Assembly: GCA_021802585.1 (NCBI GenBank)
Contig: JAJZRQ010000005.1
Location: 761 to 64,760 of the forward strand
Length of the DNA: 64,000 nucleotides
Source: Chloroflexota bacterium
GTDB lineage: Bacteria > Chloroflexota > Limnocylindria > Limnocylindrales > CSP1-4
Reading direction: 5' to 3'
Position numbers and translations under genes: made by a program. The notes below the pieces were generated by a model, which saw nothing but the letters and a program-made list of their open reading frames with translations, ran no database searches and was not told where the DNA came from. Each line of letters begins with the position of its first letter. Position 1 is the stretch's first letter. Below, in pieces: positions 12,157 to 46,687 of the stretch.

Positions 12157-12160
<4 letters not shown>

Positions 12161-29703: not shown

Positions 29704-29706
29704 GGG

Positions 29707-33632: not shown

Positions 33633-33664
33633 TTGACATTGAACCCGACTTCAACGTGTAGGGT
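33633..33664 (+). promoter_or_regulatory. MerR-type promoter with long spacer and dyad
   Basis: TTGACA (33633-33638), 20-nt spacer containing ACATTGAA/TTCAACGT, then TAGGGT (33659-33664). ATG is 6 nt after the -10. Confidence 0.45.
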
Positions 33665-33670
33665 CCGGCC

Positions 33671-34426
33671 ATGAGCCTCTCGATCACGGAGATCTCCCGC
33701 CGGGCGGGCGTCTCGACCTCGACTCTTCGCTACTACGACCGCCTCGGTCTGCTCCCAAGCGCCGGCCGCGGCCAGAACGGCTATCGGCACTACGACGATC
33801 GGGCGCTCGATCGCCTCCGGTTCATCGCGCGGGCCAAGGAGCTCGGCTGCTCACTCGACGAGATCGCCACGCTCCTCACGGCGTTCGACGAAGACTGCGG
33901 CGAGGTTCAGACGCCGCTCCGTGAGCTGGTCGAAGGCAAGATCGCGACCGCCCAGCGTCGGGTGGCGGCGCTGGTCGGGCTGACCGCCCAACTCCAGGAG
34001 GCGCGCCACGCCCTCAGCGCGGAGACCTCGGCCGGGCCGTATGGTCCTGGCTGTGCGTGCGTCGACGCCGCCCCGCGGACTCAGCCCCCGCTGACCGGCC
34101 GGCCGCTGACCGTTGTCCAGCTTGCCGAGTCGGATCCGGCGATCGCCTGCACGCTCAGCCACGACGAGATGGGCGACCGGATCGCCGAGTGGCAGGCCGC
34201 TCTCACCCACGTCCGCGACCGGACGCCCGTCGACGGCGGGATTCGCCTGGCGCTCGGGCCGGATGCCGACCTTGCCGAAGTGACCCGGCTCGCCCGGGCC
34301 GAGTGGGCGTGCTGCTCGTTCTTCGCCTTCACGCTCACCGTCGACGGCCGTGGGTCCGCGCTCGAGGTGCGCGCGCCCGAGGCCGCCAAGGACCTGGTGG
34401 CGTCGGTCTTTGGAGTCGCCGCGTGA
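33671..34426 (+). CDS. MerR-family transcriptional regulator with extra C-terminal domain
   Basis: ITEISRRAGVSTSTLRYYDRLGLL...GYRHYDDRALDRLRFIARAKELGCSLDEI. Confidence 0.85.
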   Translation: MSLSITEISRRAGVSTSTLRYYDRLGLLPSAGRGQNGYRHYDDRALDRLRFIARAKELGCSLDEIATLLTAFDEDCGEVQTPLRELVEGKIATAQRRVAALVGLTAQLQEARHALSAETSAGPYGPGCACVDAAPRTQPPLTGRPLTVVQLAESDPAIACTLSHDEMGDRIAEWQAALTHVRDRTPVDGGIRLALGPDADLAEVTRLARAEWACCSFFAFTLTVDGRGSALEVRAPEAAKDLVASVFGVAA

Positions 34427-34462
34427 GGCTCAAGGCCGAGGTGGCCGTCATCGCTTCCGCGT

Positions 34463-34673
34463 GTGCCGCCTGCTGTGTTCCGCATCCCGACGCTCCAGCC
34501 ATCGAAGTTCGGCCGCACCTATGCGGCGTACGGCGGCTTCTTCATCGTGTTCAGCCTGCTGTGGGGTTGGTGGATCGACAAGCAGCAGCCTGACCGCTGG
34601 GACCTGATCGGCGCCGCCGTTTGCCCTGGTCGGAGTACTCCTGATCTTCTACGCGCCGCGATCTGCCTCGTAG
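34463..34673 (+). pseudogene. YnfA/UPF0060-family remnant (5-prime truncated, frameshifted)
   Basis: [39 protein letters not shown], then after one extra C (about 34625) [15 protein letters not shown]-stop (TAG 34671-34673). The roughly 40 N-terminal residues expected for this family are absent. Confidence 0.5.
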
Positions 34674-35523
34674 TCCAAGGTCGCCGCGGGCCGGCGAATC
34701 CTCGGACTCCTTCCGTTCCGGGGTTCTTCGTGACTGGGTTCGAGCTCGACGCCGTCTCCTTTGTCAAGGGGACACCATGACGAAGGCAGCGGCGAGGGGT
34801 GGCTTGGGTCGTGCACGGGCCAAGTCGACTACACAACATCATACACCGAAAAGTACTTCACAAACGCCGGAGCGGGCGCTAGGGTCTTCGTAGGCGGCCT
34901 GGGCCAGAGACGAGCGTCGTACCTCGCACGGACCCGGCCGCCGCCATCGCCCAGGTCGGGCATGGAGGAGCCCTCCGGCACGGGCTCCCGCGGCGACAGC
35001 CGCGATCTGGCCATAGCCGGCGCCGGGATCCATAGCGGTCCGTGGCGACAGCCGCACCTTTCCAACCACACATAGACGCTGCTAATCGCGCTTCTCTCGA
35101 TGCGCGATCGATGGCGAGGCGCGCCGACCGCTCAACCGAGCGGGCGGAGCTCCGGCCGGGCCTGAGACGACCGTTTCCGAGGACACCTCCTCGAACGATC
35201 CGAACGCCGGTCGGCGCTCCGCTCCTCGTGGGCGGTGGCGTGACCGGCTCGGACTCGTTCGGGCTCCTCGTCGACGGCCAGTCCTCGTCCCACCGGGCTT
35301 CGCTCGTTCGGGTGGCGGACCTACGTCCGCGCCGGAACGGAGGTGATGTCCAGGAAGGACGACTCTGAGCCGGCGGCGAGCGCGCCCGCCGGTGCTCAAC
35401 CGCAGTTGCGCGTCGGACCCGGGCCGATCCTCACCGATCGATTCAGAGGCAGCGTGCCGCGACTGCCTTGCCTGCCCGGTTCCGCCTTTGTGAGCGGCAC
35501 CCCGAACACGGAGGCACCAAGCC

Positions 35524-35766
35524 ATGCAGGCAATGGAAGCAACGACACCAGCGACGAAGGTCATCTACGGCGTGAACGAGCTCGATCTCGATCTCGCTGG
35601 GAAGTCCATCCGCGGGATCTGGAAGGTCCTCGAGCAGGTCCTGAACATCCCGCGCGACGCCGCGGTGTCGGTCAACGGCGACCGGGTCCAGGACGACTAC
35701 GTCGTCCGCCCGGGCGACGAGATCGAGTTCCAGAAGCAGGCGGGCGTGAAGGGCCTGGAGGCCTAG
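35524..35766 (+). CDS. ThiS/MoaD-like ubiquitin-like (beta-grasp) protein, Ubl-1
   Basis: 80 aa. ...AAVSVNGDRVQDDYVVRPGDEIEFQKQAGVKGLEA resembles sulfur-carrier/Ubl C-termini. ACGGAGG SD. First gene of the cassette. Confidence 0.6.
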   Translation: MQAMEATTPATKVIYGVNELDLDLAGKSIRGIWKVLEQVLNIPRDAAVSVNGDRVQDDYVVRPGDEIEFQKQAGVKGLEA

Positions 35767-35846
35767 ACGCCAGCCAGCGCGGATGCCCGGAGCCGGTGGA
35801 CCCTCCCACCCGGTTCCGGGCTCCCGCAGAGAGGAGCCCGAACGCC

Positions 35847-36617
35847 ATGCAATCGCGCACGTTCCTGCGCATCGAGGGCGACCTCGTGAGCCTGATCACG
35901 GAGGTCATCGACCGGGAGGTGACTCTTCCGGACCTCATGACCGAACTCACGACAGCTCAGGTCGCCATGACCCCTCGGCTGCCGACCGGCTGCCGCTTCT
36001 GGCTTCGCTCGGGGACGACCGACCGATCGGTCTTCGTCGTCGAGCAGCCCCCGTCGCGGCGGACGATCGAATACCACGCCAGCCGACGTCACGACAGCGA
36101 GCCGACCACCTATCGGCTCGCTGTGCCGTACGTGGTCTTCGTCGTCTGGACGATCGGCGAACAGGTCGAGGGACTAGCCACGTACTTCCGGGCGCAGCCG
36201 ATCGCGTCGCTCGACGCGACGCTGCTCTGCTCGACCCTGCCGAACACGAACGACGACGGCGTCGTCTGTCTCGGGTCGGTCCGGGTCAGCGGGGCGAGCG
36301 TCGGCGAACGGGTCGACGCACTGATCGGCGCGTTCTGGGCGAGCCGCTTCAACCAGGATCTCCGCCGGCACCCGCTGCCCTTCAACGGCGGCTTCCGGGC
36401 CTGGGCATCCCGCTCCCGGCGCGATCCGCTCGCGGCCCTGTCCCTGCAATACGACCCGTACTGGCGGACCCTCCGCCAGGTCGTGGCGCAGCTGGCCGGA
36501 CTCGCGATCACGGATCTGCCGGCCGGGGCACCCTTGCCGGAGGAACCGGCGGAGGCCGAGGTCCTGACCCCGGAACCTATGGCGGACGGAGGTGAGCCCG
36601 ATGCCCTCGCTTCGTGA
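35847..36617 (+). CDS. E2-like protein (putative Ubl-conjugating enzyme, candidate PRTRC protein-B-like)
   Basis: LPNTNDDGVVCLGSV mimics the UBC HPN-x5-G-x-(I/V)-C-L active-site motif. AGAGGAG SD before ATG 35847. Only the last 256 aa of ORF 35343..36617 look coding. Confidence 0.5.
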   Translation: MQSRTFLRIEGDLVSLITEVIDREVTLPDLMTELTTAQVAMTPRLPTGCRFWLRSGTTDRSVFVVEQPPSRRTIEYHASRRHDSEPTTYRLAVPYVVFVVWTIGEQVEGLATYFRAQPIASLDATLLCSTLPNTNDDGVVCLGSVRVSGASVGERVDALIGAFWASRFNQDLRRHPLPFNGGFRAWASRSRRDPLAALSLQYDPYWRTLRQVVAQLAGLAITDLPAGAPLPEEPAEAEVLTPEPMADGGEPDALAS

Positions 36618-36858
36618 CCACCTCATCCGGACGCCGGAGGTCCGCTCTCGGAATCTCAGCGCCTGGATGGCTCCCGCTCTCGGCGAACGAGCGACACCGC
36701 TGCCCGATCGATTCTTCGAGGAGGCCGCACTGACGGTGCTCGCCCACGTCTTCCGGGATGCGGGTCCCATCCGGGAGCAGCTCGTCTACGAGCGACGCCG
36801 CTTCGAGCGGTTGGTCCAACTCATCCACCGCCTGCCCGAACGGGCCGGAGGTGCGTGA
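36601..36858 (+). CDS. Small hypothetical protein of cassette 1
   Basis: ATG 36601 is 8 nt after GGAGGTG. It overlaps the previous gene by 17 nt and the next one by TGATG. No motif recognised. Confidence 0.4.
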   Translation: MPSLRDHLIRTPEVRSRNLSAWMAPALGERATPLPDRFFEEAALTVLAHVFRDAGPIREQLVYERRRFERLVQLIHRLPERAGGA

Positions 36859-37685
36859 TGTTTCCGATCCTCGAAGCCGGTCCATCGCTCGAGGGGGCGA
36901 CCCTGCCGGCCTTCGTCGTCGCTCGCGACGGGCTCTACCTGCGGAAGCGAAGCCTCCTCGGGCTGAGCCAGACGAAGGTCGGCCGGATCGCCCACCTGCC
37001 GGAGGGCAGGGAGTTCGTCGACTACGCGCTGCCCAAGGTCCCAGCCGACCTGATGGCGCGCGCGGTCGGCTTCTTCCGCGCCGTCTACCGGCTGCATAAG
37101 ACCGAGGCGGCCGTTCTCCTGGTCTGGCGTGACGCAGGCTTCGACCTCGTCGTGCCGGCCCAGAAGGTGTCCAGTGTCTCGGTCAAGTTCGACCTGGCGG
37201 ACGGCGACGTGCCGTCCGGCGGTCGACTCGTGGGGACGATCCACTCGCATGGGGGCTTCGGCGCCTATGCGAGCTCGATCGACGAGGACGACGAGGCGGA
37301 GCTCGATGGGCTCCACGTCGTCGTCGGCGACTTCGATCAACGACGGCTCGGCTACTCGGCCGCGATCGTCGTCGACGGCATCCGCTTCTCTCTGAAGACC
37401 GGTCAGCTCATCGAGCGGCCTCGGCGCCTCGCCGAGCCACCCGACGACTGGCTCCGGAAGGTGAAGCTGGCGCCGCCGCCCCGCCTCAAGGGCAAGCCGT
37501 CGATCAAGGAGTACCTCGCCCGGGGCTTCAAGCCCTCGGACGAGATCTCGAAGCCAAGTCGACGGGAGCTCGACGACGCGATCGAGAAGGCGAGCAAGCT
37601 CGCCACCGCCCTCGGCTACCGCCTCAGCTACTGGCTCGTGCCGGTCTCCGGCTCGAGCGAGAAGGGAGGCACGGCCGATGGCTGA
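36858..37685 (+). CDS. JAB/MPN (JAMM) metalloprotease, cassette 1
   Basis: Exact JAMM motif HSHGGFGAYASSID (H-x-H-x7-S-x2-D) with upstream Glu (HKTEAAVLL). About 110-aa C-terminal extension. Confidence 0.8.
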   Translation: MFPILEAGPSLEGATLPAFVVARDGLYLRKRSLLGLSQTKVGRIAHLPEGREFVDYALPKVPADLMARAVGFFRAVYRLHKTEAAVLLVWRDAGFDLVVPAQKVSSVSVKFDLADGDVPSGGRLVGTIHSHGGFGAYASSIDEDDEAELDGLHVVVGDFDQRRLGYSAAIVVDGIRFSLKTGQLIERPRRLAEPPDDWLRKVKLAPPPRLKGKPSIKEYLARGFKPSDEISKPSRRELDDAIEKASKLATALGYRLSYWLVPVSGSSEKGGTADG

Positions 37686-38376
37686 CCGGATCGTCCTCGT
37701 CGGCTGCGGCGGGATCGGGAGCCAGTTGCTCCCGCCGCTCGTCCGCTACCTCGCGAACCGGCCCGAACCGCGCTCGCTCCTGGTCCTCGTCGACGGCGAC
37801 GTCTTCGAGCCCGGGAACCGATCGCGACAGGCCTGCTCGACCAGCGATCTGGGCTCGAACAAGGCCGAGGCCCTGGCCCGGGTCGCACGAGACGATGGGC
37901 TCGCCGTCCAGGCCATCCCCGAGTTCCTCGACGAGACCAACGTCCGGTCGATCGTCCGCGAGGGAGACATCGTCCTCCTCGCGGTCGACAACCACCGGGC
38001 GCGGGCCCTCGTCGATCGACATCTCGGATCGCTCGACGACGCGACGCTCATCAGCGGCGGCAACGACGAGACGGACGGCAACGTCCAGCTCGTCCGCCGC
38101 CGTGACGGCTGGTCCGTGGACGGCCATCTGACCGAGATCCACCCGGAGATCGGCATGGCCACTGTAGAGGAACCGCGCGGCGACGGCTGCCAGGCAATGG
38201 CGGCCGAACATCCGCAGCTCCTCGTGACGAACCTGATGGTCGCCAGCGCGATGCTCAGCTGCCTCTGGCAGATCAGTGAGCGCGGCAGCGTCCCCTACAG
38301 CGAGGTCTACCTCGACGCCATCCAGAACGCGGCCCGCAGCCGCTCCTGGTTCCGCGTCCCGGCCGGCGCGCAGTAG
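37678..38376 (+). CDS. ThiF/MoeB-type E1-like adenylyltransferase, cassette 1
   Basis: VGCGGIGS nucleotide loop, DGDVFEPGNRSRQ, GSNKAEA and AVDNHRAR are the canonical E1 adenylation-site residues. Confidence 0.85.
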   Translation: MADRIVLVGCGGIGSQLLPPLVRYLANRPEPRSLLVLVDGDVFEPGNRSRQACSTSDLGSNKAEALARVARDDGLAVQAIPEFLDETNVRSIVREGDIVLLAVDNHRARALVDRHLGSLDDATLISGGNDETDGNVQLVRRRDGWSVDGHLTEIHPEIGMATVEEPRGDGCQAMAAEHPQLLVTNLMVASAMLSCLWQISERGSVPYSEVYLDAIQNAARSRSWFRVPAGAQ

Positions 38377-38454
38377 GGAGTGTGGACCCACAGGTGCACA
38401 ACCCGGCCGAGGCGGCGCCCACCGGCGTCCCTCGGCCGAACGATCTCAGGCGGC

Positions 38455-38486
38455 TTTGTTACAGGACTTGAAACAATTGTCACAAA
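38455..38486. promoter_or_regulatory. AT-rich inverted repeat ahead of the ATPase gene
   Basis: TTTGTTACA-14 nt-TGTCACAAA (8/9 complementary), in a locally AT-rich patch. Confidence 0.3.
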
Positions 38487-39619
38487 CGCGATCGACGAAC
38501 CCGTTCCGACCTGGTAGCGGGATCCTCCCGCCGCTCTTGGCTGGGCGCGAGCGCGAGACGGCTGCCTTCGAGGCGCGCGTTGCGCGGACCCGCGAGGGCC
38601 AGCCGCAGCACACGGCGCTGCTCGGCGAATGGGCGATCGGCAAGACGACGCTCCTGATGCACTGGCGACGCCTGCGACAGCAGGCTGGCGACGCCGTCGT
38701 CCTTTCGATGGCATACCCGCAGTCGGCGGACGAGTTCCTCGCCGGTCTCGTCACGGCGATCGATGCCGAACTTGGGACGGACTGGCCGCGGCGTCTCGAC
38801 GTGGAGCTGGGCGTCGATATCGGAATCGCCGACGCTCGGTTCCGCCGGACCGCCCCGAACTCCGAGAGGGAGTTGCGCGCGGCATTGCGACGACTCGTCG
38901 AGCACCGCGCGGACGAGGACCGGTCCGTGGTCGTCTTGCTCGATGACGTCGACCTGCTGCGTGAGACCGGGGACGTGCTCCTGCGCCTGCGCGCCTGTGC
39001 CCTCGAGCTCTACGCGGCCGACCTGCCGCTCGCATTCATCGTGGCGGCGTCCCCAGGCCTGTTCACGGAGGTGCGATCGGCTCACGAGCCGCTGGTCCGG
39101 TTCTTCGAGCCGCTGACTGTCGGTCCGCTCGATGACTCGGACGCCGCGCGAGCCCTGGCCGAACCGCTCGCGGAAACAACCGTTCGATTCGACCCCGACG
39201 TGGTCGCCGAGATCGTGGACCTCGCCGGCGGACGACCCTACTACCTTCAGAAGCTCGGCTACTACACGTTTGACGCCGCGGGCAACGGGCGGGTCACACA
39301 GGCCGAGTTCGCGGTCGCCTTCGAGCGAGCGTTTGCCTCCGTAAGCCAGGAGATCTTCGCCGCTCGCTGGGCCGGTATGTCCCCGATCGACCGCCAGGTT
39401 GTGGCCGTCGTCGCCCGCAGCACCGAGCCGCGCCCCTCGGGCGACATCGAAGCCGAGGCGGCGCGACGCGGAGTGAGGCCGGGAGCCGCCCGGCAATCGC
39501 TGCGCCGTCTTGCGTCGAAGGGCCAGATCGACCGGCTCGCCAACGGGCACCGCGGCCGTTACGAGGTTCGGGATCGGCTCTTCAAGCGGTACCTGGAACT
39601 GCAGACATGCGAGCCGTAG
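38468..39619 (+). CDS. AAA/ORC-like (archaeal-ATPase-type) ATP-binding protein with C-terminal wHTH
   Basis: NPFRPGSGILPPLLAGRERE, Walker A GEWAIGKTT, Walker B VVVLLDDVD, C-terminal LRRLASKGQIDRL. Start TTG 38468 or 38477 (uncertain). Confidence 0.75.
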   Translation: MKQLSQTRSTNPFRPGSGILPPLLAGRERETAAFEARVARTREGQPQHTALLGEWAIGKTTLLMHWRRLRQQAGDAVVLSMAYPQSADEFLAGLVTAIDAELGTDWPRRLDVELGVDIGIADARFRRTAPNSERELRAALRRLVEHRADEDRSVVVLLDDVDLLRETGDVLLRLRACALELYAADLPLAFIVAASPGLFTEVRSAHEPLVRFFEPLTVGPLDDSDAARALAEPLAETTVRFDPDVVAEIVDLAGGRPYYLQKLGYYTFDAAGNGRVTQAEFAVAFERAFASVSQEIFAARWAGMSPIDRQVVAVVARSTEPRPSGDIEAEAARRGVRPGAARQSLRRLASKGQIDRLANGHRGRYEVRDRLFKRYLELQTCEP

Positions 39620-40557
39620 CCGTCGCAAGCGCTGTTCCCAGACTCGACGAGTTCGCGCTTGCCGACGTCATCTCCGAGTACCTCTCCGCCTTGAAGGTCG
39701 CCGGCAGGAGCCCGAAGACGATCAGTTGGTATGCCGACATGCTCTGGGAGTTCGTCCGGTTCATCGAGCGTGAGGGGGTTCGGGCGACGGTCGCGGACGT
39801 CGCCCCCGTCGAGGTGCGGCGCTGGCTGCTGGCAATCCAATCACGACGAACGCGAAGCCTTGCCCCAAGCAGCATGGCCGCCCGCGTCCGGACCGTGAAG
39901 GCGTTTGGGACCTGGATCGCGAACGAGCTTGATCTGCCGGCGAACCCGGTTCGGGGTGTGCCGGTTCCTCGTGTCCCCGAACTTCTCGTTCCTAGCCTTC
40001 GGGAACCCGACATCCTTGCCCTTCTAAGAACCCTCGATGCAGGTTCTCAGCAGCCCGAGCGCGACCGGGCGATCGTCCTGCTGCTGCTCGATACGGGTCT
40101 GCGCCTGAGTGAGGCCGCCAACCTTCGAATTCGCGACGTCGACCTCATCGAGGGTCGGTGCCGCGTGATGGGAAAGGGCGGACGAGAGCGCGTAGTGCCA
40201 GTTGGCCGAAAGACCCGTCGCGCTCTCCGTCATTGTCTCGCGCGCCGGGGAAGGCTCCTGCCCGACGAGGCTCTGTTCATCGGCCGCGGTGGTCGGGCGC
40301 TCGCTCCCCGCGGCATTCAGCAGCTCGTCCGCCGACTGAGCCGCCGCACCACGCTCGCGTCGCGATGCTCACCTCACGTCCTTCGCCATACCTTTGCCCG
40401 ATCGTTTCTTGCGAACGGTGGCGACGTGTTCTCGCTTCAGCGAATCCTCGGCCACAGCCCATCGTCCCTTCAGGTCACTCGTCGGTACGTCGACCTGCTC
40501 GATGACGACCTCCGCGCGGTACACCGTGAGGCCTCACCGGTCGACCGTCTGGGCTAG
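39607..40557 (+). CDS. Tyrosine recombinase/integrase (XerC/D-like), Int-1
   Basis: LLLLDTGLRLSEA (Arg), HVLRHTFA (H-x-x-R), LGHS...TRRY (His, Tyr). The ATG overlaps the ATPase gene end by 13 nt. Confidence 0.9.
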   Translation: MRAVAVASAVPRLDEFALADVISEYLSALKVAGRSPKTISWYADMLWEFVRFIEREGVRATVADVAPVEVRRWLLAIQSRRTRSLAPSSMAARVRTVKAFGTWIANELDLPANPVRGVPVPRVPELLVPSLREPDILALLRTLDAGSQQPERDRAIVLLLLDTGLRLSEAANLRIRDVDLIEGRCRVMGKGGRERVVPVGRKTRRALRHCLARRGRLLPDEALFIGRGGRALAPRGIQQLVRRLSRRTTLASRCSPHVLRHTFARSFLANGGDVFSLQRILGHSPSSLQVTRRYVDLLDDDLRAVHREASPVDRLG

Positions 40558-40561
40558 CTCC

Positions 40562-40579
40562 AGGCGGATTGGCCCGCGA
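40562..40579. repeat. Degenerate copy of the tRNA-Gln 3-prime end plus flank (att-like)
   Basis: AGGCGGA-TTGGCCCGCGA compared with AGGCGGAGTTGGCTGGCGA at 46532-46550; same orientation, 16 identical positions. Confidence 0.4.
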
Positions 40580-40600
40580 CGCTCGCGCTGAGCCACCGTG

Positions 40601-41464
40601 TCAGCCGCTTGGGTCCCAGAACAAGATCAGAACCTGGTAGGTCGTATTCACCAGTTCATATTTCACAACGCGGCGCTTGCCCGCTAGATCGATACGAAGT
40701 TCCTCGCCACCGACGACCACTGCGGGTTTGGTCAGATCGGCGGCTGAACGAAGCCAGGTCTCGGGCGGGTCGGCAATCACCACAGGCACCTTCGGCGGCC
40801 CGAATCGCTCAATCCATGACGGCGACGCGGTGACCTCATTGCGGCGGTAACGAAGGGGTTCGCGACTCAGCGGCGATGGTTCCAGCGCGATCGCAAGCAC
40901 GGGGCGATGATGAGTCCGTGCAAATGCCCGCAATGTTGCACGGATTGACGCCCCAAAGAGACCCGCGATGGTCACGACCGAGGCCATCTCCAATCGGTGC
41001 TGCGCGGCGATGCGACGGATGAAGTCGTGTTGGAACAGCAGAAGCGAGGCGCCCTCATTGGCCTCCCGTTCAAACAAACGCCGGGTCGCCGGCGAGAGAT
41101 CGACGTCGTCGTCGACTACGACGAGATCCGTCTGCCATGGCGCGATGTGATGGACGACTTCATGAAGTCGATTGAAATTTCGTCGCCCGTGGATCGCGAT
41201 GGCGGGGTCGAGGTGAATCTCGCGTTCGCGGCGATCGAGCAACGCACGGATCTTGAAGCGAAAGGGAGCGATCGCCGCGCGAAGGTACTGCGGTGCGCGC
41301 GAGAGGACGGAATCGGAGAGGACTGACTCGCTGGCCTCCCGCAGGTTGCCGGCGGCCACGATGTCGTCGATAGGGGTCGGCAATCGTCCGAGCGCGCCAG
41401 CATCCAGGAGGAGCCGGTGGGTCAACCGGCTAATCTCGTCGGGATGCTCGGCATCGCCGGTCAT
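40601..41464 (-). CDS. ImmA/IrrE-family zinc metallopeptidase
   Basis: HEVVHH (HExxH) followed by FEREANEGASLLLF, as in ImmA/IrrE/CapP peptidases. Starts 2 nt after the stop of the XRE gene. Confidence 0.7.
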   Translation of the reverse strand: MTGDAEHPDEISRLTHRLLLDAGALGRLPTPIDDIVAAGNLREASESVLSDSVLSRAPQYLRAAIAPFRFKIRALLDRREREIHLDPAIAIHGRRNFNRLHEVVHHIAPWQTDLVVVDDDVDLSPATRRLFEREANEGASLLLFQHDFIRRIAAQHRLEMASVVTIAGLFGASIRATLRAFARTHHRPVLAIALEPSPLSREPLRYRRNEVTASPSWIERFGPPKVPVVIADPPETWLRSAADLTKPAVVVGGEELRIDLAGKRRVVKYELVNTTYQVLILFWDPSG

Positions 41465-41466
41465 CC

Positions 41467-41817
41467 TCAGCCCTCGCGGCTGCGCTCGTGCCGATACCAG
41501 GACAGGTATCGGGCCAGCTCTTCCACCTCTGCCGCCGAGAGATCCTCTGCATTCAGGGCATGAGCAAGGATATTCACGGAGGCGTCGCCTCGACCCGCTC
41601 GAGGGACGACATGGCCGGCAAGCTCCATTAGGTCTCGATACGGAATGGCCAGTGCTGCCGCCAGGCGATGTAGGACCGCCGGCGACGGTTGCTTGACCTC
41701 GCCTCGTTCGATCTTCTGAAGATATGGCGGACTGATGCCCGCCTTCGCAGCCGTGCCGCGGAGGGAAAACTCCTTCAGTTCACGGACTTCGCGCAGGCGT
41801 CGTCCGAGATCACCCAT
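41467..41817 (-). CDS. XRE-family HTH transcriptional regulator
   Basis: LRGTAAKAGISPPYLQKIERGEVKQPSPAVLHRLAAAL. ATG 41817 follows AAGGAGGA. Only the last 116 aa of ORF 41467..42198 are real. Confidence 0.85.
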   Translation of the reverse strand: MGDLGRRLREVRELKEFSLRGTAAKAGISPPYLQKIERGEVKQPSPAVLHRLAAALAIPYRDLMELAGHVVPRAGRGDASVNILAHALNAEDLSAAEVEELARYLSWYRHERSREG

Positions 41818-41862
41818 CGAATCCTCCTTCTCGTTCACCGACGGCGTGACTGTACACTCCAG

Positions 41863-41892
41863 TTGACATCTTCGCAACCTCTCAGCTAGCAT
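41863..41892 (+). promoter_or_regulatory. Sigma-70-like promoter of the Ubl-2 operon
   Basis: TTGACA (41863-41868), 18 nt, then TAGCAT (41887-41892), in the 108-bp divergent region between the XRE gene and Ubl-2. Confidence 0.4.
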
Positions 41893-41925
41893 GGGCCGCG
41901 TAACCCGTAGTGAACGGAGGATCCA

Positions 41926-42207
41926 GTGGTGAACGAACAGGACAAGGTCAGGGACAGCATCAAGGTAACGGTCACTTTCCCCCTCGGCGAGGGGCCCTAC
42001 CACGATGACGTGCCACCGGACACGACGGTCGGCGATGTCCGATCGGCAGCCATGCGCGGCTTCGGCGTGACTGAGGATCCGGCATTGCTCTTCTACCTCA
42101 TTCACGCCGGCGACAGGATCGACGACGGTCGGACGATCGGCGACGTGGCCGGCCACGCGGCAGCCGTCAAGTTCACCCTCGCCCGCGAGATCATTCAAGG
42201 GGCCTGA
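41926..42207 (+). CDS. Ubiquitin-like beta-grasp protein, Ubl-2
   Basis: 93 aa. IKVTVTFPLG...TTVGDVRSAAMRGFGV...YLIHAGDRIDDGRTIGDV...VKFTLAREIIQGA fits the alternating beta/alpha pattern of prokaryotic Ubl domains. GTG follows GGAGGA. Confidence 0.55.
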   Translation: MVNEQDKVRDSIKVTVTFPLGEGPYHDDVPPDTTVGDVRSAAMRGFGVTEDPALLFYLIHAGDRIDDGRTIGDVAGHAAAVKFTLAREIIQGA

Positions 42208-42644
42208 TGGATATCGAGAGCCAGCTGCGCCTCGACGAGGACGTTGAGGCGGTCGCCTTCTACCTTGACGAGAATGGCGGTCGCCTCGACGCCGATCCGG
42301 CTGGCGAGGCCGGCGTTTGGTGGGCCACGATGCGGCCCCGCACTATCCCCGAGGAGCAGTACTACGTTCGGATCGGCTGGCTCCGATACCCGGACGCGCC
42401 TCCCTCGGTCAAGTTCGGAACCGCCGTCGGCGGTTCACTTGGCATCACGGCCGCGTGGCCCGTCGTGCCGAGCTATCGGCCAGGCAATTTCGATATCTGC
42501 GCTCCGTTCACAAAAGAGGGGTTCGAATCGCATCCGGAGTGGGCCGCCCAGTTCCCGTGGCCCACGACCGGCAACCCTTTTCTGTGGATCGTGGACATCG
42601 TCCAGGGGCACCTTGACCGCTCGTACCAGGGGCGATCGGGATGA
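42207..42644 (+). CDS. UBC-like E2 (Ubl-conjugating enzyme)
   Basis: YPDAPPSVKF mirrors the E2 YPxxPPxVxF motif. A candidate catalytic Cys sits in NFDICAPF about 35 aa later. TGATG overlap with Ubl-2. Confidence 0.65.
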   Translation: MDIESQLRLDEDVEAVAFYLDENGGRLDADPAGEAGVWWATMRPRTIPEEQYYVRIGWLRYPDAPPSVKFGTAVGGSLGITAAWPVVPSYRPGNFDICAPFTKEGFESHPEWAAQFPWPTTGNPFLWIVDIVQGHLDRSYQGRSG

Positions 42645-43126
42645 CCGGTCTCGAACTACCGGCGGCTGCGCTGGCGCGCCTGCTCGCCGATGTCGTTCGG
42701 TTTGGTGACAACGGCCTCGAGACGGGTGCGGTGCTGCTCTCGTCCCGTCGTGACAGTCATGCCGATGTCCTAGCACTGTGCGGCGAGCACGGAATTGAGC
42801 GCCGTCCCGACCAGTTCGTAATAAGTGGCGCCGCCCTCGCCCAACTGTTCGACTGGGCAGACGAGGCAGGGGCCCGGGTTATCGCTCAGGTGCATTCGCA
42901 TGGCGGACTCGCGCGGATGTCCCCAACGGACCGACGGTTCGGGCTCACCGTCGAGGGCTTCACGAGCGCCATCGTCCCGCACTTCGGTCGACCGCCAAAT
43001 GATCCGGCGGCATGGGGATGGTGGCGGTTTCAGGACCAGGTCTGGGTGCCCTCCGACCCTGGATCAGCTGTAGCGGCCCCGAGCCGGACGGTCATCTTCG
43101 ACGAGGAGGGAGTTCGTGCCGGCTGA
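42641..43126 (+). CDS. JAB/MPN (JAMM) metalloprotease, cassette 2
   Basis: ETGAVLL Glu and HSHGGLARMSPTD (JAMM with one residue less in the spacer). ATGA overlap with E2. Confidence 0.75.
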   Translation: MTGLELPAAALARLLADVVRFGDNGLETGAVLLSSRRDSHADVLALCGEHGIERRPDQFVISGAALAQLFDWADEAGARVIAQVHSHGGLARMSPTDRRFGLTVEGFTSAIVPHFGRPPNDPAAWGWWRFQDQVWVPSDPGSAVAAPSRTVIFDEEGVRAG

Positions 43127-44630
43127 TCACTCCCGCGCGCTTCTCCTCGGGCAGAACGTGACCGACCAGCCGCAGAGCGAGCTCGCTCAGCGACTCGAGG
43201 GCGCGAGCGTTTCGATCGACATCGACCTCGGCATTCCCGGTGCTGTCTTGACCGCGTCGATCCTCGTTCGGACCCTCCGGCGCCTCCCTGGGCGCATTTC
43301 GATCGACCCCGATGAACTGCCCACCTCGCTGGTCGAGCGGCTCCGCGTCGAGGCCGAGGCCATCGATCCGGATCGACCCATCGCCGTTGGCCGGCCTCGG
43401 GCTGGTGACACGATCATCCGAATCGGCACCACGGGGCCGCCCGGGTCATTGCGCGTCATCCCAGATCTGCACGGCTTCCGCCTCTCGTGGGCGAGCAACT
43501 CCCTTCAACAGGGGAAACCTGCTTCCGCTCTGGGATCGGCCGCGGCTGCTGCTGCTGCCGCCGCCGAGACCTTCAAGGTGGCGGCCCGCGTAATCGGAGT
43601 TCGGGGCCGTCGCCATCGCCGTCTGGCATGGTGCCCGGTCACACTTTCCCATCGGCCCGCTCAAGGCCCGGATCTTCCGCGCGACTGGCAGTTGGACGGC
43701 CTCCTCCTCGGGCTGGGGGCGATCGGGTCGGCAACCGCGCTGATCCTCTCCGAGCTGCCGGTTGAGGGGTCGCTCGACCTCGTCGACCCGCAACGGTTCG
43801 CACCCGAGAACGTCGGGACGTATTCGCTCGGCGGTGCCAAGGAGGCTCTCGATCAGCCGTGGAAGACCTCCGTGGCCGCGAGCGCCCTGAGACGATTCGA
43901 GACGAGGAGCTGGAATGCGGTCGCGGCGTATCTGCCCGAACTCATCGACGCAGGCCGACTCCGGTGGCCCCCGATCGTCCTAACAGGACTCGACTCGCCT
44001 GACGCACGCCGCGACTCCCAACGTCTTTGGCCGGATCACCTAATCGATGGAGCCACAGGCGACACGATGGTCGGCCTTCATGCGATTACCGCTGTCGGCC
44101 GGCCTTGCCTCGCATGCTTCTTCCCGCCGACGGCGACGCCCACGGTCTCGCCCACGCGGGAGCTGGAGCGTGCGACGGGATTGCCGACGGAGTTACTTGT
44201 GCGAGGCGCGGAGATCCTGCTCGAGGCGCATCTCGAAGGTCTCTCGGTGGCGCACCAGGAGCGTCTGCGCCCCTTTGTCGGCAGGGAGATCTGCGGGCTT
44301 GCGAGTGCGCTTGGGCTGACGGAGCTGCCCGACGAGGGATACCGACCATCGGTCGCCTTTGTGTCGCTGACCGCCGCGACTCTCGTCGTCGGGCGGCTGG
44401 TCGCGATCGCTGCGGGCTGGCGGACTGCATCCAACTTCGTGCAGTACGACACGCTCGCCGGCCCGCGCCAGCCGACGCGCGAGTGGCGGACCGCGCGGCC
44501 CGCATGCGATTGCGTGCAGCGCGCAGGCGTCGTCGCGGAAGTGAGACGCCGCCGGGCTGCGTATCGGTTTGTCGACCGACCGCCGTCGATCGGCCATGAT
44601 CGGATGACGCCAGCGTCGAACGAGGCTTGA
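43116..44630 (+). CDS. E1-like Ubl-activating enzyme (long form with N-terminal extra domain)
   Basis: C-terminal half: GLGAIGS loop, PWKTSVAA Lys, GLDSPDARR Asp, Zn pairs CLAC and CDC. About 200-aa N-terminal domain without a nucleotide loop. Confidence 0.75.
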   Translation: MPADHSRALLLGQNVTDQPQSELAQRLEGASVSIDIDLGIPGAVLTASILVRTLRRLPGRISIDPDELPTSLVERLRVEAEAIDPDRPIAVGRPRAGDTIIRIGTTGPPGSLRVIPDLHGFRLSWASNSLQQGKPASALGSAAAAAAAAAETFKVAARVIGVRGRRHRRLAWCPVTLSHRPAQGPDLPRDWQLDGLLLGLGAIGSATALILSELPVEGSLDLVDPQRFAPENVGTYSLGGAKEALDQPWKTSVAASALRRFETRSWNAVAAYLPELIDAGRLRWPPIVLTGLDSPDARRDSQRLWPDHLIDGATGDTMVGLHAITAVGRPCLACFFPPTATPTVSPTRELERATGLPTELLVRGAEILLEAHLEGLSVAHQERLRPFVGREICGLASALGLTELPDEGYRPSVAFVSLTAATLVVGRLVAIAAGWRTASNFVQYDTLAGPRQPTREWRTARPACDCVQRAGVVAEVRRRRAAYRFVDRPPSIGHDRMTPASNEA

Positions 44631-44636
44631 TCGAGG

Positions 44637-45455
44637 ATGACACTCGCCACCGTCATCAAGGGACCTGAGGGGGTCGTGCTGGCCGCCGAGAGTCGGGTCA
44701 CGCTGCGCGTCGCGACTGGCGGTCGTGAGCGCGAGAGCACGTTCGATCATGCAACCAAAGTGCTGAGTTTCGGAGCGCCGAACACCGGCTTCGGCGCAGT
44801 CACGTACGGGGTGGGCGTTCTCGGTCGTGACCGCACCGCGGCGAGCTTCATTCCCGAGTTCGAGGCGACGCTGCCAGATGAAGCGATCCCTGTTGCGGAG
44901 TTCGCAAGCCGACTTGGCGACTTCTTCCGGGTCCAGTGGCAGGCCAACCCGCCGACAGCCAAGCCCGCGGACGCCATGTCATTCCTGGTCGCGGGATTCG
45001 ACGCCGACGATGCCTACGCCCGGGTGTTCCAGTTGGACGTCCCGATCACGGTCACGCCGATCGAGCATTTCCTGGCGCCCCATCAACCTCCATTCGGGGC
45101 GCGCTGGGGCGGTCAGAAGAAGATCGTTGAGCGATTGTTGGCCGGCTTCGATCCGCTCCTTCCCGAGATGGTCCGGCACCGCCTCGGTCTCGATCCGAAA
45201 CAAATGGACGAAATGCGTGAGGCGGTATCAGCGCTCGAGCTCTCGGTGCCGTGGGAGGCTATGGCTCTGCAGGACTGCATCGACCTTGCGATCTTTGGAA
45301 TCCGCTCGACCATCAGCGCTCAGGCCCTGTCCCTGGAAGTCCGTGGCTGCGGTGGGGCGATCGACGTGGCTGTAATAACGCGGCGCGAGGGGTTGCGATT
45401 CGTACAACGCAAAGCGCTCGTCGGCGACCATCCGAGCGGTCGGACGGAGACCTGA
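44637..45455 (+). CDS. Proteasome beta-subunit/HslV-like Ntn threonine protease
   Basis: MTLATVIKGPEGVVLAAESRVT (Thr right after Met, Glu17, Arg19), TKVLSF (Lys33 equivalent). C-terminal GGAIDVAVITRREG closely matches archaeal beta subunits. Confidence 0.8.
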   Translation: MTLATVIKGPEGVVLAAESRVTLRVATGGRERESTFDHATKVLSFGAPNTGFGAVTYGVGVLGRDRTAASFIPEFEATLPDEAIPVAEFASRLGDFFRVQWQANPPTAKPADAMSFLVAGFDADDAYARVFQLDVPITVTPIEHFLAPHQPPFGARWGGQKKIVERLLAGFDPLLPEMVRHRLGLDPKQMDEMREAVSALELSVPWEAMALQDCIDLAIFGIRSTISAQALSLEVRGCGGAIDVAVITRREGLRFVQRKALVGDHPSGRTET

Positions 45456-45485
45456 GGCTCCGGACACGATCCCTCGGACGACTGC

Positions 45486-46439
45486 CTACCGCCCCTTGTT
45501 GCCCATGAGCCGATCGGCCGGCGACGCCCCGCGGTGGCGCTCGACGAGGTCGACGTCGGCGAGGGCGACATATCGCTTGACCATGTCGAGCGTCGTGTGG
45601 CCGAGGATCCGCTGGAGGCTGAACACGTCGCCGCCGTTGACGAGATAGCTCCGAGCGAACGTGTGGCGGAGCGAGTGCGGACTGAGCCGGCCCGTCACCC
45701 CGATCCTCGTCTTCAGCCGACGGATCGCCTGCTGGATGCCGCGGCCGTCGATCGGCCCGCGCCGGCCGAGGAAGAGGGGATCGTCGGCTGCCCCGGGGCC
45801 GCGCTGACCGAGGTAGCGGACGATCGCCTGCCGGGCGGTCCCACCGACCGGCACGATCCGCTCCTTCGATCCCTTGCCGCGGACCTTGAGCGTCCCGTCG
45901 ACCCGCAGGTCGCCGAGGCGCAGCCCACCCGCCTCGGACACCCGCAGGCCGGTGTCGAGCAGTAGGAGGAGGATCGCCCGGTCGCGCAGACCGGCGACCG
46001 CGAGCAGCCTCCGCATCGCGTCGTCCCCGACCGGCTCGATGAGCCTCTCGGGGACGCGCGGCTTGCGCAGTGCCCGCAGCGCCGTGGCCCGTGCGAGCTC
46101 CTCGGCCGCCAGCCAGTTGCCGAGGACCTTGAGGGTCCGGACGTAGCCGGCGACACTGATCGGCGAGAGCGTCGAGCGGAGCTCGAGCAGCCAGGCCCGC
46201 AGGTCGGCCCCGTCAAGGCTGTCGACCGGCCGGCCGTCGCCGAGCGAGGTCACCGCTCGGCGCAAGATCATTCGATACCAGGTGAGGGTCTTCGCGGCGG
46301 CGCCCTCGGCGGCCTTCGCCGCGAGGAACAACTCGACCGCCCGGCCGAGCGTCAGGTGCCCGTCAGAATCAGGTGCCCATAGATTCTGAGTGCCCGAATC
46401 AGGTGCCCAAAGATCAGGGGAGTCAGGTGCCCAAACCAT
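45486..46439 (-). CDS. Tyrosine recombinase/integrase, Int-2 (homolog of Int-1)
   Basis: LLLLDTGLRVSEA, HSLRHTFA, LGHT...VKRY. Start uncertain (ATG 46439 or GTG 46484). The N-terminal WAPDS repeats may be non-coding DNA repeats. Confidence 0.9.
   Translation of the reverse strand: MVWAPDSPDLWAPDSGTQNLWAPDSDGHLTLGRAVELFLAAKAAEGAAAKTLTWYRMILRRAVTSLGDGRPVDSLDGADLRAWLLELRSTLSPISVAGYVRTLKVLGNWLAAEELARATALRALRKPRVPERLIEPVGDDAMRRLLAVAGLRDRAILLLLLDTGLRVSEAGGLRLGDLRVDGTLKVRGKGSKERIVPVGGTARQAIVRYLGQRGPGAADDPLFLGRRGPIDGRGIQQAIRRLKTRIGVTGRLSPHSLRHTFARSYLVNGGDVFSLQRILGHTTLDMVKRYVALADVDLVERHRGASPADRLMGNKGR
46352..46432. repeat. Array of five TCAGGTGCCC decamers
   Basis: Copies at 46352, 46369, 46399 and 46423, plus a degenerate copy (TGAGTGCCC) at 46387. 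The same 9-mer TCAGGTGCC occurs inside both tRNA-Gln genes (46586, 48513). Confidence 0.6.
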
Positions 46440-46510
46440 GTCCGTCGCCTCCTGCGACGGACCACCGTTCGGGGCTCCGACCACGACATCTGGTGCTCCG
46501 GGTCCTCATT

Positions 46511-46529
46511 GACCACAACATCTTGTGGT
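46511..46529 (-). terminator. Short hairpin just downstream of tRNA-Gln-1
   Basis: ACCACAA-CATC-TTGTGGT (7-bp stem); no U-tract. Confidence 0.25.
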
Positions 46530-46540
46530 TTGAGGCGGAG

Positions 46541-46615
46541 TTGGCTGGCGAGGAAGGATTCGAACCTTCAATCCCCTGATCCAGAGTCAGGTGCCTTACC
46601 GTTAGGCCACTCGCC
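46541..46615 (-). tRNA. tRNA-Gln (anticodon CTG), copy 1, CCA encoded
   Basis: Manual fold of the minus strand: acceptor TGGCGAG/CTCGCCA, D arm GCCT..AGGC, anticodon arm CCTGA-CTCTGGA-TCAGG, T arm GAAGG-TTCGAAT-CCTTC, discriminator G, CCA. Confidence 0.9.
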
Positions 46616-46687
46616 AGCGATGCCGCAGCGGCGCCCAGAGTCTACCGCGTCGGCTGCGGCCGCCTCAACCGCGGGTCGCCGGTCGCC

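What the first reader, a model, noticed from the sequence alone, without database searches (positions are those of the whole stretch)
34830..46540. Composite island at tRNA-Gln with two homologous integrases in opposite orientation
Seen: Int-1 (39607-40557, plus strand) and Int-2 (45486-46439, minus strand) share long identical stretches (LLLLDTGLR.SEA, GGDVFSLQRILGH, ASP.DRL). Int-2 starts about 100 bp from the 3-prime end of tRNA-Gln-1. Int-1 ends 4 bp before a degenerate copy of that tRNA end. The 40.6-41.9 kb and 34.8-34.9 kb stretches are visibly AT-richer than the rest. Pseudogene debris (YnfA remnant) lies at the left edge. Inference: two elements inserted successively at the same tRNA-Gln att site, each bringing its own Ubl system. 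The opposite integrase orientation suggests a later inversion or a different element organisation.
Basis: partly seen in the sequence, partly recalled or inferred. Interest (0 to 1): 0.6.

Follow-up and report, generated by a model that had tools for sequence, protein, structure and literature searches.

The report
Dual-integrase tRNA-Gln island with cargo slot
The stretch is the tRNA-proximal part of a large, probably immobilised genomic island from a Chloroflexota-specific family that always carries two related integrase genes facing each other, with a swappable cargo bay between them (here an anti-phage ubiquitin-like system), so it is one element type and not two elements stacked by chance.

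Summary
There are two Xer-like tyrosine integrases, 44% identical and convergent. Int-2 starts 102 nt from tRNA-Gln(CTG). The GC content is in the lowest 1-2.5% of the genome. A YnfA remnant lies at the left edge. The "degenerate tRNA end" next to Int-1 is a chance-level match and is absent from orthologous loci.

"Two successive insertions plus an inversion" is not the best reading. In 13 loci, spread over at least two families of the same Chloroflexota class, an Int-2-type gene next to a tRNA (Gln or Arg) faces an Int-1-type gene. The gap between them ranges from about 53 nt to 27.6 kb. The two proteins co-diverge (Mantel r=0.69, p~0.002). Int-1-type genes never occur without an Int-2-type gene. 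One 10.5-kb element bounded by perfect 48-bp tRNA repeats holds both.

Int-2 is the tRNA anticodon-loop integrase. Its P' arm is an array of core half-sites (GGGCACCTGAYTC) inside its own first 90 coding bases. The slot between the integrases holds a CapH/CapP-controlled type II BilABCD-like operon. Int-1 is co-transcribed with a conserved Ubl/E2/JAB/E1/STAND operon.

No distal att copy or P arm exists in the assembly. The non-syntenic, lower-GC DNA continues at least 46 kb to the contig end. This is a new variant of a known kind, of moderate interest.

The parts
46542..46616 (-). tRNA-Gln(CTG) copy 1. It is the attachment target, and the crossover region is its anticodon stem-loop (CCTGA-CTCTGGA-TCAGG).
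   Evidence: ARAGORN and Rfam. Relatives carry 45-56-nt partial copies running from the 3' end to the anticodon loop. attP-like junctions in G307 and G199 start at the anticodon stem.
46440..46541 (-). Spacer between the tRNA and Int-2. It holds two conserved hairpins (ACCACAAGATGTTGTGGT, CACCAGATGTCGTGG) and an AGGAGG Shine-Dalgarno sequence.
   Evidence: Sequence. The same layout appears in all 13 homologous loci printed.
46352..46432 (-). P' arm: four to five direct copies of GGGCACCTGAYTC, which equals tRNA-Gln nt 22-34. They lie inside the first ~90 nt of the Int-2 ORF and are translated as WAPDS repeats.
   Evidence: the repeat finder family D9. It is the only such cluster in the 2.65-Mb assembly. 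PWM scores are 16-23, against below 13.5 elsewhere in the window apart from the two tRNAs. The array is conserved in all homologues, and the same motif occurs in distal P arms.
45486..46439 (-). Int-2: Xer-like tyrosine integrase, tRNA-proximal and transcribed away from the tRNA.
   Evidence: PF00589 at 3.7e-33 and PF02899. Homologues of 58-75% identity lie next to tRNA-Gln, tRNA-Arg or tRNA-Thr in many genomes.
40558..45485 (.). Variable cargo slot between the stop codons of the two integrase genes.
   Evidence: Homology with G388 and G317 stops at 40545-40552 and resumes at 45502-45510. Slot length is 53 nt to 27.6 kb in other loci.
40601..41464 (-). capP-like M78 (IrrE/ImmA-type) peptidase.
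   Evidence: PADLOC capP at 8.5e-12. PF06114 at 1e-3.
41467..41817 (-). capH-like XRE helix-turn-helix repressor, divergent from the Bil-like operon.
   Evidence: PF13560 and PF01381 at 1e-12. The arrangement is as published for type II BilABCD (PMC10557695).
41926..45455 (+). Type II BilABCD-like operon: Ubl 41926-42207, putative E2 42207-42644, JAB/BilC 42641-43126, E1/BilD 43116-44630, plus an unassigned 272-aa gene at 44637-45455.
   Evidence: PADLOC BilC at 1.6e-12 and BilD at 1.7e-14. Prok-JAB and ThiF. The E2 and the 272-aa protein have no significant family or PDB match. The E1 has only one other homologue in 401 class genomes.
39607..40557 (+). Int-1: Xer-like tyrosine recombinase, convergent with Int-2. 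Its start overlaps the STAND gene by 13 nt.
   Evidence: PF00589 at 5.9e-34. TIGR02224 XerC scores 201 bits, below the 335 cut-off. Int-1-type genes are found only in genomes that also hold an Int-2-type gene.
34830..39619 (+). Conserved Ubl-1 block: GTACAC repeats plus promoter at 34830-34910; a ~600-nt conserved leader; ThiS-like Ubl 35524-35766; Prok-E2_D-like about 35760-36617; an 88-aa ORF 36592-36858; JAB 36855-37685; ThiF E1 37678-38376; STAND NTPase about 38380-39619.
   Evidence: Pfam and weak PRTRC_A/B/ThiF similarity in NCBIfam. The block is 74% nt-identical and collinear in G388 and G317, and is also present in G054 and G199.
34427..34673 (+). YnfA/UPF0060 pseudogene: the N-terminal 47 profile positions are missing and there is one frameshift. 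It lies just outside the conserved block.
1..34426 (.). Further accessory DNA (metal and sulfide resistance genes), probably part of the same island or island array.
   Evidence: GC is 71.5%. Relatives give only scattered paralogue-level matches. Nine segments are 73-89% identical to cargo lying between the two integrases of G403.

Best explanation
Window 34830-46616 is the tRNA-proximal end of a genomic island at least 46 kb long. The island belongs to a family, seen so far only in one high-GC Chloroflexota class, whose constant feature is a convergent pair of homologous Xer-like tyrosine recombinases.

Int-2 is the integrase proper. It recombines an attP made of [P arm with 2-3 half-sites] - [anticodon-stem core plus the 3' half of the tRNA] - [P' arm of 4-5 half-sites inside its own 5' coding region] with the anticodon stem-loop of tRNA-Gln. 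This rebuilds the tRNA and normally leaves a ~48-bp direct repeat at the far end.

Int-1 is an obligate companion recombinase, inherited together with Int-2. Its role is inferred, not shown. The candidates are a second subunit or directionality partner of the Int-2 synaptic complex, or the enzyme that serves the cargo slot.

The DNA between the two stop codons is an exchangeable cargo bay. Here it holds a CapH/CapP-regulated type II BilABCD-like ubiquitin-like defence operon of foreign composition. A second module, a Ubl/E2/JAB/E1/STAND operon, is co-transcribed with Int-1.

In this genome the distal repeat and P arm are missing from the assembly, and neighbouring genes are decayed. The island is therefore most likely fixed in place, or else its far end is unassembled.

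Shown: the anatomy, its conservation, the co-divergence, the att structure in relatives, and the absence of attR here. Inferred: which protein binds which site, the role of Int-1, and how cargo is exchanged.
For: 1. Recurrent architecture. tRNA, then an Int-2-like gene, then a gap, then an Int-1-like gene pointing back, is seen in WIN, G388, G317-C3, G054, G403, G074, G307-C34, G226, G398, G011, G317-C4, L088 and L128. The gaps are 53 nt to 27.6 kb.
2. All 11 other genomes with an Int-1-type gene in a 400-genome class sample also hold an Int-2-type gene. In 10 of them the two lie on the same contig and converge.
3. Pairwise identities of the two proteins over 10 paired loci correlate: Mantel r=0.69, p~0.002.
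4. G317-C4 has perfect 48-bp direct repeats (L081 1218-1265 and 11718-11765). They enclose both integrases and an RHS toxin gene, with no internal att.
5. attP-like junctions (P arm, then a partial tRNA starting at the anticodon stem, then the Int-2-like gene) occur in G307 C10/C36 and G199 C3.
6. The half-site array is unique in the genome, conserved in all homologues, and repeated in distal P arms.
7. Homology with G388 and G317 covers 34917-40552 and 45502-46619 but not the DNA between them.
8. Synteny breaks at the tRNA 3' end, and the site is hypervariable in the genus.
9. Composition is in the lowest 1-2.5% of the genome.
10. The cargo matches the published capH/capP-bilABCD layout.
Against: - No biochemical or read-level evidence for recombination could be obtained.
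- No attR or P arm is present in this assembly, so present-day mobility of this copy is unsupported.
- Many Int-2-type genes are seen without an Int-1-type partner. Most of these are on short contigs or are fragments, so Int-1 may be dispensable for integration.
- One locus (G199) has an Int-2 fragment in the same orientation as Int-1.
- The Mantel test uses only 10 loci that are themselves phylogenetically related.
- All genomes are MAGs, so some linkage could be affected by misassembly.
Confidence: 0.68

Rival explanations
1. First reader's model. Two independent integrase-bearing elements entered the same tRNA-Gln att site one after the other in this lineage. Int-1 with Ubl-1 came first, then Int-2 with the Bil-like system. 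The inner one later inverted or lost its att.
For: tRNA-Gln is a true tandem-insertion hotspot. G005 and G121 have two to three partial tRNA copies 6-20 kb apart. L087 has two Int-2-like genes in the same orientation. The two halves differ in GC, 68.5% against 66.3%. The 34830-40557 block has sharp edges on both sides in three genomes.
Against: Tandem arrays in relatives keep 45-56-nt tRNA repeats between units, and none is present here. The 40562 match is at chance level. The same convergent pair recurs in 13 loci, five of them with no cargo at all between the genes. The pair co-diverges. Both genes sit inside one repeat-bounded element in G317-C4.
Confidence: 0.08
2. Ancient composite. A tandem insertion of two related elements happened once in an ancestor, the internal att decayed, and the fused unit has since spread as one element. 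Int-1 would then be a relic, or only loosely functional.
For: The two integrases are paralogues (44% identity) with the same domain layout. Several Int-1-type copies are truncated or carry stops: G307-C34, L128, and possibly G403 and G295.
Against: Int-1-type ORFs are full-length and keep the catalytic motifs in at least 9 loci separated by up to ~55% protein divergence. This argues for selection. The convergent orientation is kept throughout.
Confidence: 0.14
3. Nested element. The Ubl-1 operon plus Int-1 (34830-40557) is a separate small element mobilised by Int-1. It specifically inserts inside Int-2-type islands, so the two are found together without Int-1 taking part in tRNA integration.
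For: The block is collinear and sharply bounded in WIN, G388 and G317, with different DNA on both sides. Int-1 divergence does not track the switch of target tRNA from Gln to Arg, whereas Int-2 divergence does.
Against: There are no direct or inverted repeats between the two edges of the block in any of the three genomes. In G011, G226, G398, G403 and G317-C4 the Int-1-type gene is not linked to the Ubl-1 operon at all. The common unit is therefore Int-1 next to Int-2, not Int-1 plus Ubl-1.
Confidence: 0.1

Closest known systems
Classical tRNA-integrating genomic islands and prophages that use the anticodon loop as crossover site (tyrosine integrases; sublocation classes described by K. P. Williams 2002, from my own knowledge)
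   Same: The integrase gene abuts the tRNA 3' end. attP carries the 3' part of the tRNA from the anticodon stem onward. Relatives have 45-56-bp direct repeats. The site is a hotspot with tandem arrays. Composition is deviant.
   Different: The integrase is a short Xer-like two-domain protein with no recognised arm-binding domain. Its arm sites are copies of the core half-site, and the P' array lies inside the int ORF. A second homologous recombinase gene is a constant partner. The distal repeat is missing in this copy.
Pipolins of Gammaproteobacteria (tRNA-integrated defence islands, some with two integrases; bioRxiv 10.1101/2024.05.22.595293)
   Same: These are tRNA-integrated, repeat-flanked islands that act as reservoirs of exchangeable defence systems. 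A subgroup carries two tyrosine integrases.
   Different: The pipolin integrases belong to different families (Int_SXT and Int_P2) and are not described as a convergent homologous pair flanking the cargo. Pipolins are defined by a piPolB gene, which was not seen in the annotated part here. I did not scan all ORFs.
XerC/XerD
   Same: Int-1 and Int-2 have the same size and domain layout. The best NCBIfam hits are XerC, XerD and XerA. They are two paralogous recombinases that could act as a heteromeric pair on a site with two different half-sites.
   Different: Scores are well below the family cut-offs (201 against 335 bits). The genome has other Xer-like genes on C118 and C101. These genes are island-borne, next to a tRNA, and patchily distributed: 30 of 401 genomes have an Int-2-type match.
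Type II BilABCD (CEHH/6C) ubiquitination-like antiviral operons with CapH/CapP (PMC10557695)
   Same: The gene order is Ubl-E2-DUB(JAB)-E1. capH and capP lie upstream and divergent. The single-domain Ubl has a residue after the last Gly. PADLOC gives BilC and BilD hits.
   Different: An extra 272-aa gene follows the E1. The E2 and Ubl give no significant family hit. No function was tested.
PRTRC (ParB-related, ThiF-related cassette) and other Prok-E2/JAB/E1 cassettes of mobile elements (Iyer, Burroughs, Aravind)
   Same: The Ubl-1 block has weak similarity to PRTRC_A (JAB), PRTRC_B (E2) and PRTRC_ThiF, and it sits on a mobile element.
   Different: All scores are far below the cut-offs. No ParB is present. 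A STAND NTPase and a tyrosine recombinase are appended.

Membership tests
tRNA-integrated genomic island (tyrosine-integrase type) | Integrase gene directly next to the 3' end of a tRNA gene | tested here: met
   The Int-2 ATG is 102 nt from the tRNA-Gln 3' end.
tRNA-integrated genomic island (tyrosine-integrase type) | Direct repeat of the tRNA 3' part at the distal end (attR) | tested here: not met
   None is found in the window or the whole assembly. It is present in related elements.
tRNA-integrated genomic island (tyrosine-integrase type) | Absent from relatives, with the synteny break at the tRNA | tested here: met
   12 genus relatives share glnS, the tRNA and the right flank, but none shares the left flank. 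The break lies at 46531-46541.
tRNA-integrated genomic island (tyrosine-integrase type) | Deviant base composition | tested here: met
   67.3% against 74.7% GC, in the lowest 1-2.5% of 5-kb windows.
Tyrosine recombinase (PF00589) | Catalytic domain with the R...K...HxxR...H...Y residues | tested here: met
   PF00589 at 6e-34 and 4e-33. DTGLR, GKGxxER, H(V/S)LRH, LGH and RYV are readable in both proteins. The assignment of the catalytic residues rests on my own knowledge of the family.
XerC/XerD chromosome-dimer resolvases | Score above the NCBIfam equivalog cut-off | tested here: not met
   TIGR02224 scores 201.2 against 335.15, and TIGR02225 scores 160.3 against 329.6.
Type II BilABCD | E1 (BilD) and JAB deubiquitinase (BilC) homologues | tested here: met
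   PADLOC BilD at 1.7e-14 and BilC at 1.6e-12.
Type II BilABCD | bilA-bilB-bilC-bilD order with an E2 (CEHH) and a beta-grasp Ubl | tested here: inconclusive
   The order and sizes fit (93 aa, 145 aa). Neither protein gives a significant Pfam, PADLOC or PDB sequence hit. No structure was predicted.
Type II BilABCD | Optional divergent capH/capP regulators | tested here: met
   capP in PADLOC at 8.5e-12, an XRE HTH at 1e-12, divergent orientation.
PRTRC cassette | PRTRC_A/B/C/E, ThiF and ParB above the curated cut-offs | tested here: not met
   The best scores are 33.5, 19.2 and 68.1 bits, against cut-offs of 101.8, 131.45 and 144.75. No ParB was seen.
Integron | IntI-type integrase with attI and attC-flanked cassettes | tested here: not met
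   Integron-integrase models score 77 and 47 bits, against cut-offs of 265 and 435. No repeats were found at the cargo edges. attC structure itself was not searched.

The most novel reading that the evidence does not exclude
The convergent pair is a two-enzyme platform. Int-2 moves the whole island in and out of tRNA genes. The dedicated second recombinase, Int-1, loads and swaps cargo in the bay between the two stop codons. This would be an integron-like capture device for defence and resistance modules in Chloroflexota, with recombinase half-sites doubling as codons (the WAPDS repeats) in the int gene.
Probability: 0.15. Interest if true: 0.7.

Novelty: new variant of a known kind. Interest (0 to 1): 0.5.

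Why it matters
tRNA-integrating islands are textbook objects. A family in which two paralogous Xer-like recombinases are inherited as a convergent pair around a hypervariable cargo bay is not, to my knowledge, described. In this family the arm sites are copies of the core half-site written into the integrase's own coding sequence.

- It gives a concrete handle on how poorly studied soil and freshwater Chloroflexota exchange defence systems (Bil-type ubiquitin-like systems, an RHS toxin) and metal-resistance genes.
- It offers a compact integrase/attP/attB set: a 48-bp attB in tRNA-Gln and a ~320-aa enzyme. This could become a genetic tool for a phylum that lacks such tools.
- It corrects the annotation logic that two integrases mean two elements.

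Tried and rejected
1. I searched for a distal att in four ways: a 26-mer with up to 3 mismatches, BLAST-short of 90 nt against the whole assembly, a regex cluster search, and a PWM scan. Nothing was found.
2. It is at chance level and is not conserved in orthologous junctions.
3. I looked for an empty site, meaning YnfA or any left-flank gene next to tRNA-Gln, in 12 genus relatives over 18-20 kb each. None was found, and every relative carries different DNA there.
4. I first thought the half-site motif co-varies with the target tRNA (Gln against Arg). On counting, this does not hold cleanly. Arg-type arms read GCATCTGA, one base from both tRNAs, and several Gln loci are mismatched. I dropped the claim. 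What stands is that the motif equals the anticodon-stem 5' strand.
5. I tested whether tRNA-Gln copy 1 is a hybrid with an element-derived 3' half. It is not. Copy 1 is identical in most genus relatives.
6. I looked for direct or inverted repeats at the two edges of the Ubl-1/Int-1 block in three genomes. None exceeds shuffled controls.
7. A CCTGA-N7-TCAGG site lies just after Int-1. It is present in G054, G199 and G307a only, and not here or in G388 or G317.
8. This does not exclude the idea, because no fold was predicted.

Full report
**What is in the sequence.**
The window is contig C116:761-64760 of a 2.65-Mb, 74.7% GC assembly of 141 contigs. Its closest public relatives are titled Chloroflexi or Chloroflexia MAGs and 'Ca. 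Limnocylindrales'.

Two tRNA-Gln(CTG) genes, at 46542-46616 and 48468-48542 on the minus strand, flank glnS. Reading leftwards from tRNA-Gln copy 1, the genes are:
- Int-2 (45486-46439, -).
- An unassigned 272-aa gene.
- A BilD-like E1, a BilC-like JAB, a 145-aa putative E2 and a 93-aa Ubl, all on the plus strand.
- Divergent capH-like and capP-like regulators.
- Int-1 (39607-40557, +).
- Upstream of Int-1 and co-directional with it: a STAND NTPase, a ThiF-type E1, a JAB protein, an 88-aa ORF, a Prok-E2_D-like protein and a ThiS-like Ubl.

The Int-1 start overlaps the STAND ORF by 13 nt. A frameshifted YnfA remnant that lacks its N-terminal half lies at 34427-34673.

**Checking the observation.**
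- The two integrases are 44% identical (E=5e-63) and share the quoted motifs.
- Composition deviates clearly. The stretch 34830-46540 is 67.3% GC, and the capP/capH stretch is 60-64%. The 5-kb windows rank in the lowest 1-2.5% of the genome.
- The 'degenerate tRNA end' 4 nt after Int-1 is real as a string match (17 of 19 with one gap). Its alignment score of 21 is beaten by five other places in the left 46.5 kb. BLAST-short does not report it. The same junction in the two orthologous loci shows nothing like it.
- No other copy of the tRNA 3' part exists in the assembly.

**The site is a hotspot, and the island is larger than 12 kb.**
In 12 relatives of the same genus, glnS, the tRNA and the right-hand flank are conserved at 77-86% DNA identity. 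Similarity stops at window 46531-46541, the tRNA 3' end. Each relative carries different DNA for at least 18 kb beyond it.

G005 has two extra 46-56-nt copies of the tRNA 3' part, running from the 3' end to the anticodon loop, at 8.4 and 19 kb from the tRNA. So the site accepts tandem insertions.

In our window the whole left part (1-46.5 kb) is lower in GC (71.5%). Relatives give only scattered matches of 65-78% to it, apart from a ferredoxin paralogue. Nine of its segments are 73-89% identical to DNA that lies between the two integrases of another genome, G403. The accessory region therefore runs at least to the contig end, where the assembly breaks in a repeat.

**The key result: the integrase pair is a conserved unit.**
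I searched 400 genomes of the class with Int-2 and with Int-1, fetched the loci and added a scan of species-representative genomes. These gave 13 loci in which an Int-2-type gene faces an Int-1-type gene. In the 12 loci where the contig reaches that far, the Int-2-type gene lies next to a tRNA.
- Nine of those 12 loci are at tRNA-Gln and three at tRNA-Arg(TCG). A lone Int-2-type gene lies at tRNA-Thr.
- The gap between the two genes is 53-104 nt in five loci (G317-C4, G011, G226, G398, L088).
- In the other loci the gap is 1.2 kb (G074), 3.0 kb (L128), 3.7 kb (G388), 4.9 kb (here), 11.5 kb (G307), 13.4 kb (G403), 17 kb (G054) and 27.6 kb (G317-C3).
- Every other genome with an Int-1-type gene also has an Int-2-type gene (11 of 11). 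The reverse is not true.
- Over 10 complete pairs, the pairwise identities of the two proteins correlate (Mantel r=0.69, p~0.002). The partners have therefore travelled together.
- In G317-C4, perfect 48-bp direct repeats of the tRNA-Gln 3' part enclose a 10.5-kb element. It holds both integrases and an RHS-repeat toxin gene, with no internal att.

Against G388 and G317-C3, our sequence is collinear at 74% identity from 34917-34934 to the Int-1 stop (40545-40552), and again from the Int-2 stop (45502-45510) through the tRNA. The DNA between is unrelated. A three-way alignment places the left edge of conservation at about 34830, at GTACAC repeats and a promoter-like TTCACA-17-TAGGGT.

**How Int-2 works: the att anatomy.**
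Two contigs of G307 and one of G199 show attP-like junctions. The order is: unrelated DNA, then a partial tRNA-Gln that begins at the anticodon stem (CACCTGACTCTGGATCAGG...CCA), then the conserved hairpin spacer, then the Int-2-type gene. Together with the 45-56-nt repeats in many genomes, this places strand exchange in the anticodon stem-loop, an inverted repeat CCTGA-N7-TCAGG.

In every homologue the first ~90 nt of the Int-2-type ORF lie after a good AGGAGG-N5-9-ATG. They hold three to five direct copies of GGGCACCTGAYTC or a close variant. This is the 5' strand of the anticodon stem plus the first loop bases. The copies are translated as WAPDS-like repeats using codons (GCA, CCT, GAT) that I would expect to be rare at 75% GC; codon usage was not tabulated. 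Distal att copies are preceded by two or three of the same motifs about 70-130 nt away.

In our genome the only cluster of this motif is at 46352-46432. A PWM scan gives scores of 16-23 there and at the two tRNA cores, and below 13.5 elsewhere in the window.

I infer that these are recombinase-binding arm sites with core-type specificity. This fits a short two-domain integrase with no recognised arm-binding domain. It has not been shown by experiment.

**What Int-1 does is not settled.**
Int-1 keeps the catalytic motifs, is full length in at least nine loci, and is always convergent with Int-2. Its divergence does not follow the Gln-to-Arg switch of target, whereas that of Int-2 does. This argues that Int-2 reads the tRNA.

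The candidate roles are a second subunit or directionality partner, a cargo-slot recombinase, or a long-lived relic. I found no repeats at the cargo edges or at the edges of the Ubl-1/Int-1 block. A CCTGA-GAAGGAA-TCAGG site just after Int-1 exists in only three related loci.

**The cargo.**
The slot holds the published type II BilABCD layout with divergent capH/capP (PMC10557695; PADLOC hits), plus an extra 272-aa gene that has no detectable relatives by sequence. Its E1 has one other homologue among 401 class genomes, so it is a rare acquisition.

The Ubl-1/E2/JAB/E1/STAND operon is linked to Int-1 in five genomes and resembles PRTRC components only weakly. Other loci carry an RHS toxin, metal-resistance genes or unknown genes in the corresponding places.

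**Verdict.**
The interpretation of two successive insertions plus an inversion is not the best one. The stretch is one end of a dual-integrase island of a conserved, apparently undescribed architecture. This copy has most likely lost its distal end.

The closest known things are ordinary anticodon-loop tRNA islands and the two-integrase pipolins. This is a new variant of a known kind.

**Limits.** All genomes are MAGs. No protein function was tested.

Noticed in passing
window 46352-46432: The integrase half-site array is also coding sequence (MVWAPDSPDLWAPDS...WAPDS). It uses GCA, CCT and GAT codons, which I would expect to be rare at 75% GC (codon usage not tabulated). The same dual use is seen in all Int-2-type genes; tRNA-Arg loci read R/W-A-S-D-S/P.
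   Followed up: yes
window 46452-46530: Two short hairpins (ACCACAAGATGTTGTGGT and CACCAGATGTCGTGG) lie between the tRNA and the Int-2 start. They are conserved in position and form in all homologous loci. They could be a tRNA terminator or a binding site for an accessory factor.
   Followed up: partly
genome contig C120:1-12500 (not in the window): A second, frameshifted Int-2-type pseudogene with a single half-site sits at the very start of a low-GC (65-68%) stretch. The first 127 nt of C120 are identical to the starts or ends of C92 and C45, which suggests an assembly-graph branch (strain variation or a repeat).
   Followed up: partly
L063 (G403:C17) 7200-18460, compared with window 84-32285: Metal and sulfide resistance genes of the window's left part lie between the two integrases in G403, at up to 89% DNA identity. 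That is higher than glnS identity within the genus (84-86%), which suggests recent exchange of this cargo between genera.
   Followed up: partly
L058 4794, L072 8690, L066 4753: An anticodon-stem-like inverted repeat CCTGA-GAAGGAA-TCAGG lies about 20 nt after the Int-1-type stop codon in three related loci. It may be a second recombination site. It is absent in this window.
   Followed up: partly
window 34830-35523: GTACAC direct repeats and a promoter-like TTCACA-17-TAGGGT are followed by a ~600-nt stretch that is conserved at ~74% across genera without a convincing ORF. It includes a conserved GGAGCCC...GGGCTCC hairpin. It may be a leader RNA or a small unannotated gene of the Ubl-1 operon.
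   Followed up: no
L018 9480-9680 and L022 9770-9970 (G005, G010): Islands at the same tRNA-Gln in genus relatives have P arms with a different repeated motif (TCCCCTGATCC / GGATCAGGGGAGA), which is the other strand of the anticodon stem. They have no Int-1 or Int-2 homologue. A second integrase family seems to use the same crossover site.
   Followed up: partly
L061 (G398:C19) 2292-7414: Three partial copies of the 5' 38 nt of tRNA-Arg lie upstream of the intact gene, on the side opposite the island.
   Followed up: no
window 11926-12159 (-): A 7Fe-type ferredoxin gene is the only part of the left 34 kb with 81-89% DNA identity to all relatives, and it has a paralogue on C18. It is a cargo copy of a core gene.
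   Followed up: partly
L081 (G317:C4) 5668-11247: An 1859-aa RHS-repeat / YD-shell toxin gene is the main cargo of the intact 10.5-kb dual-integrase element.
   Followed up: partly
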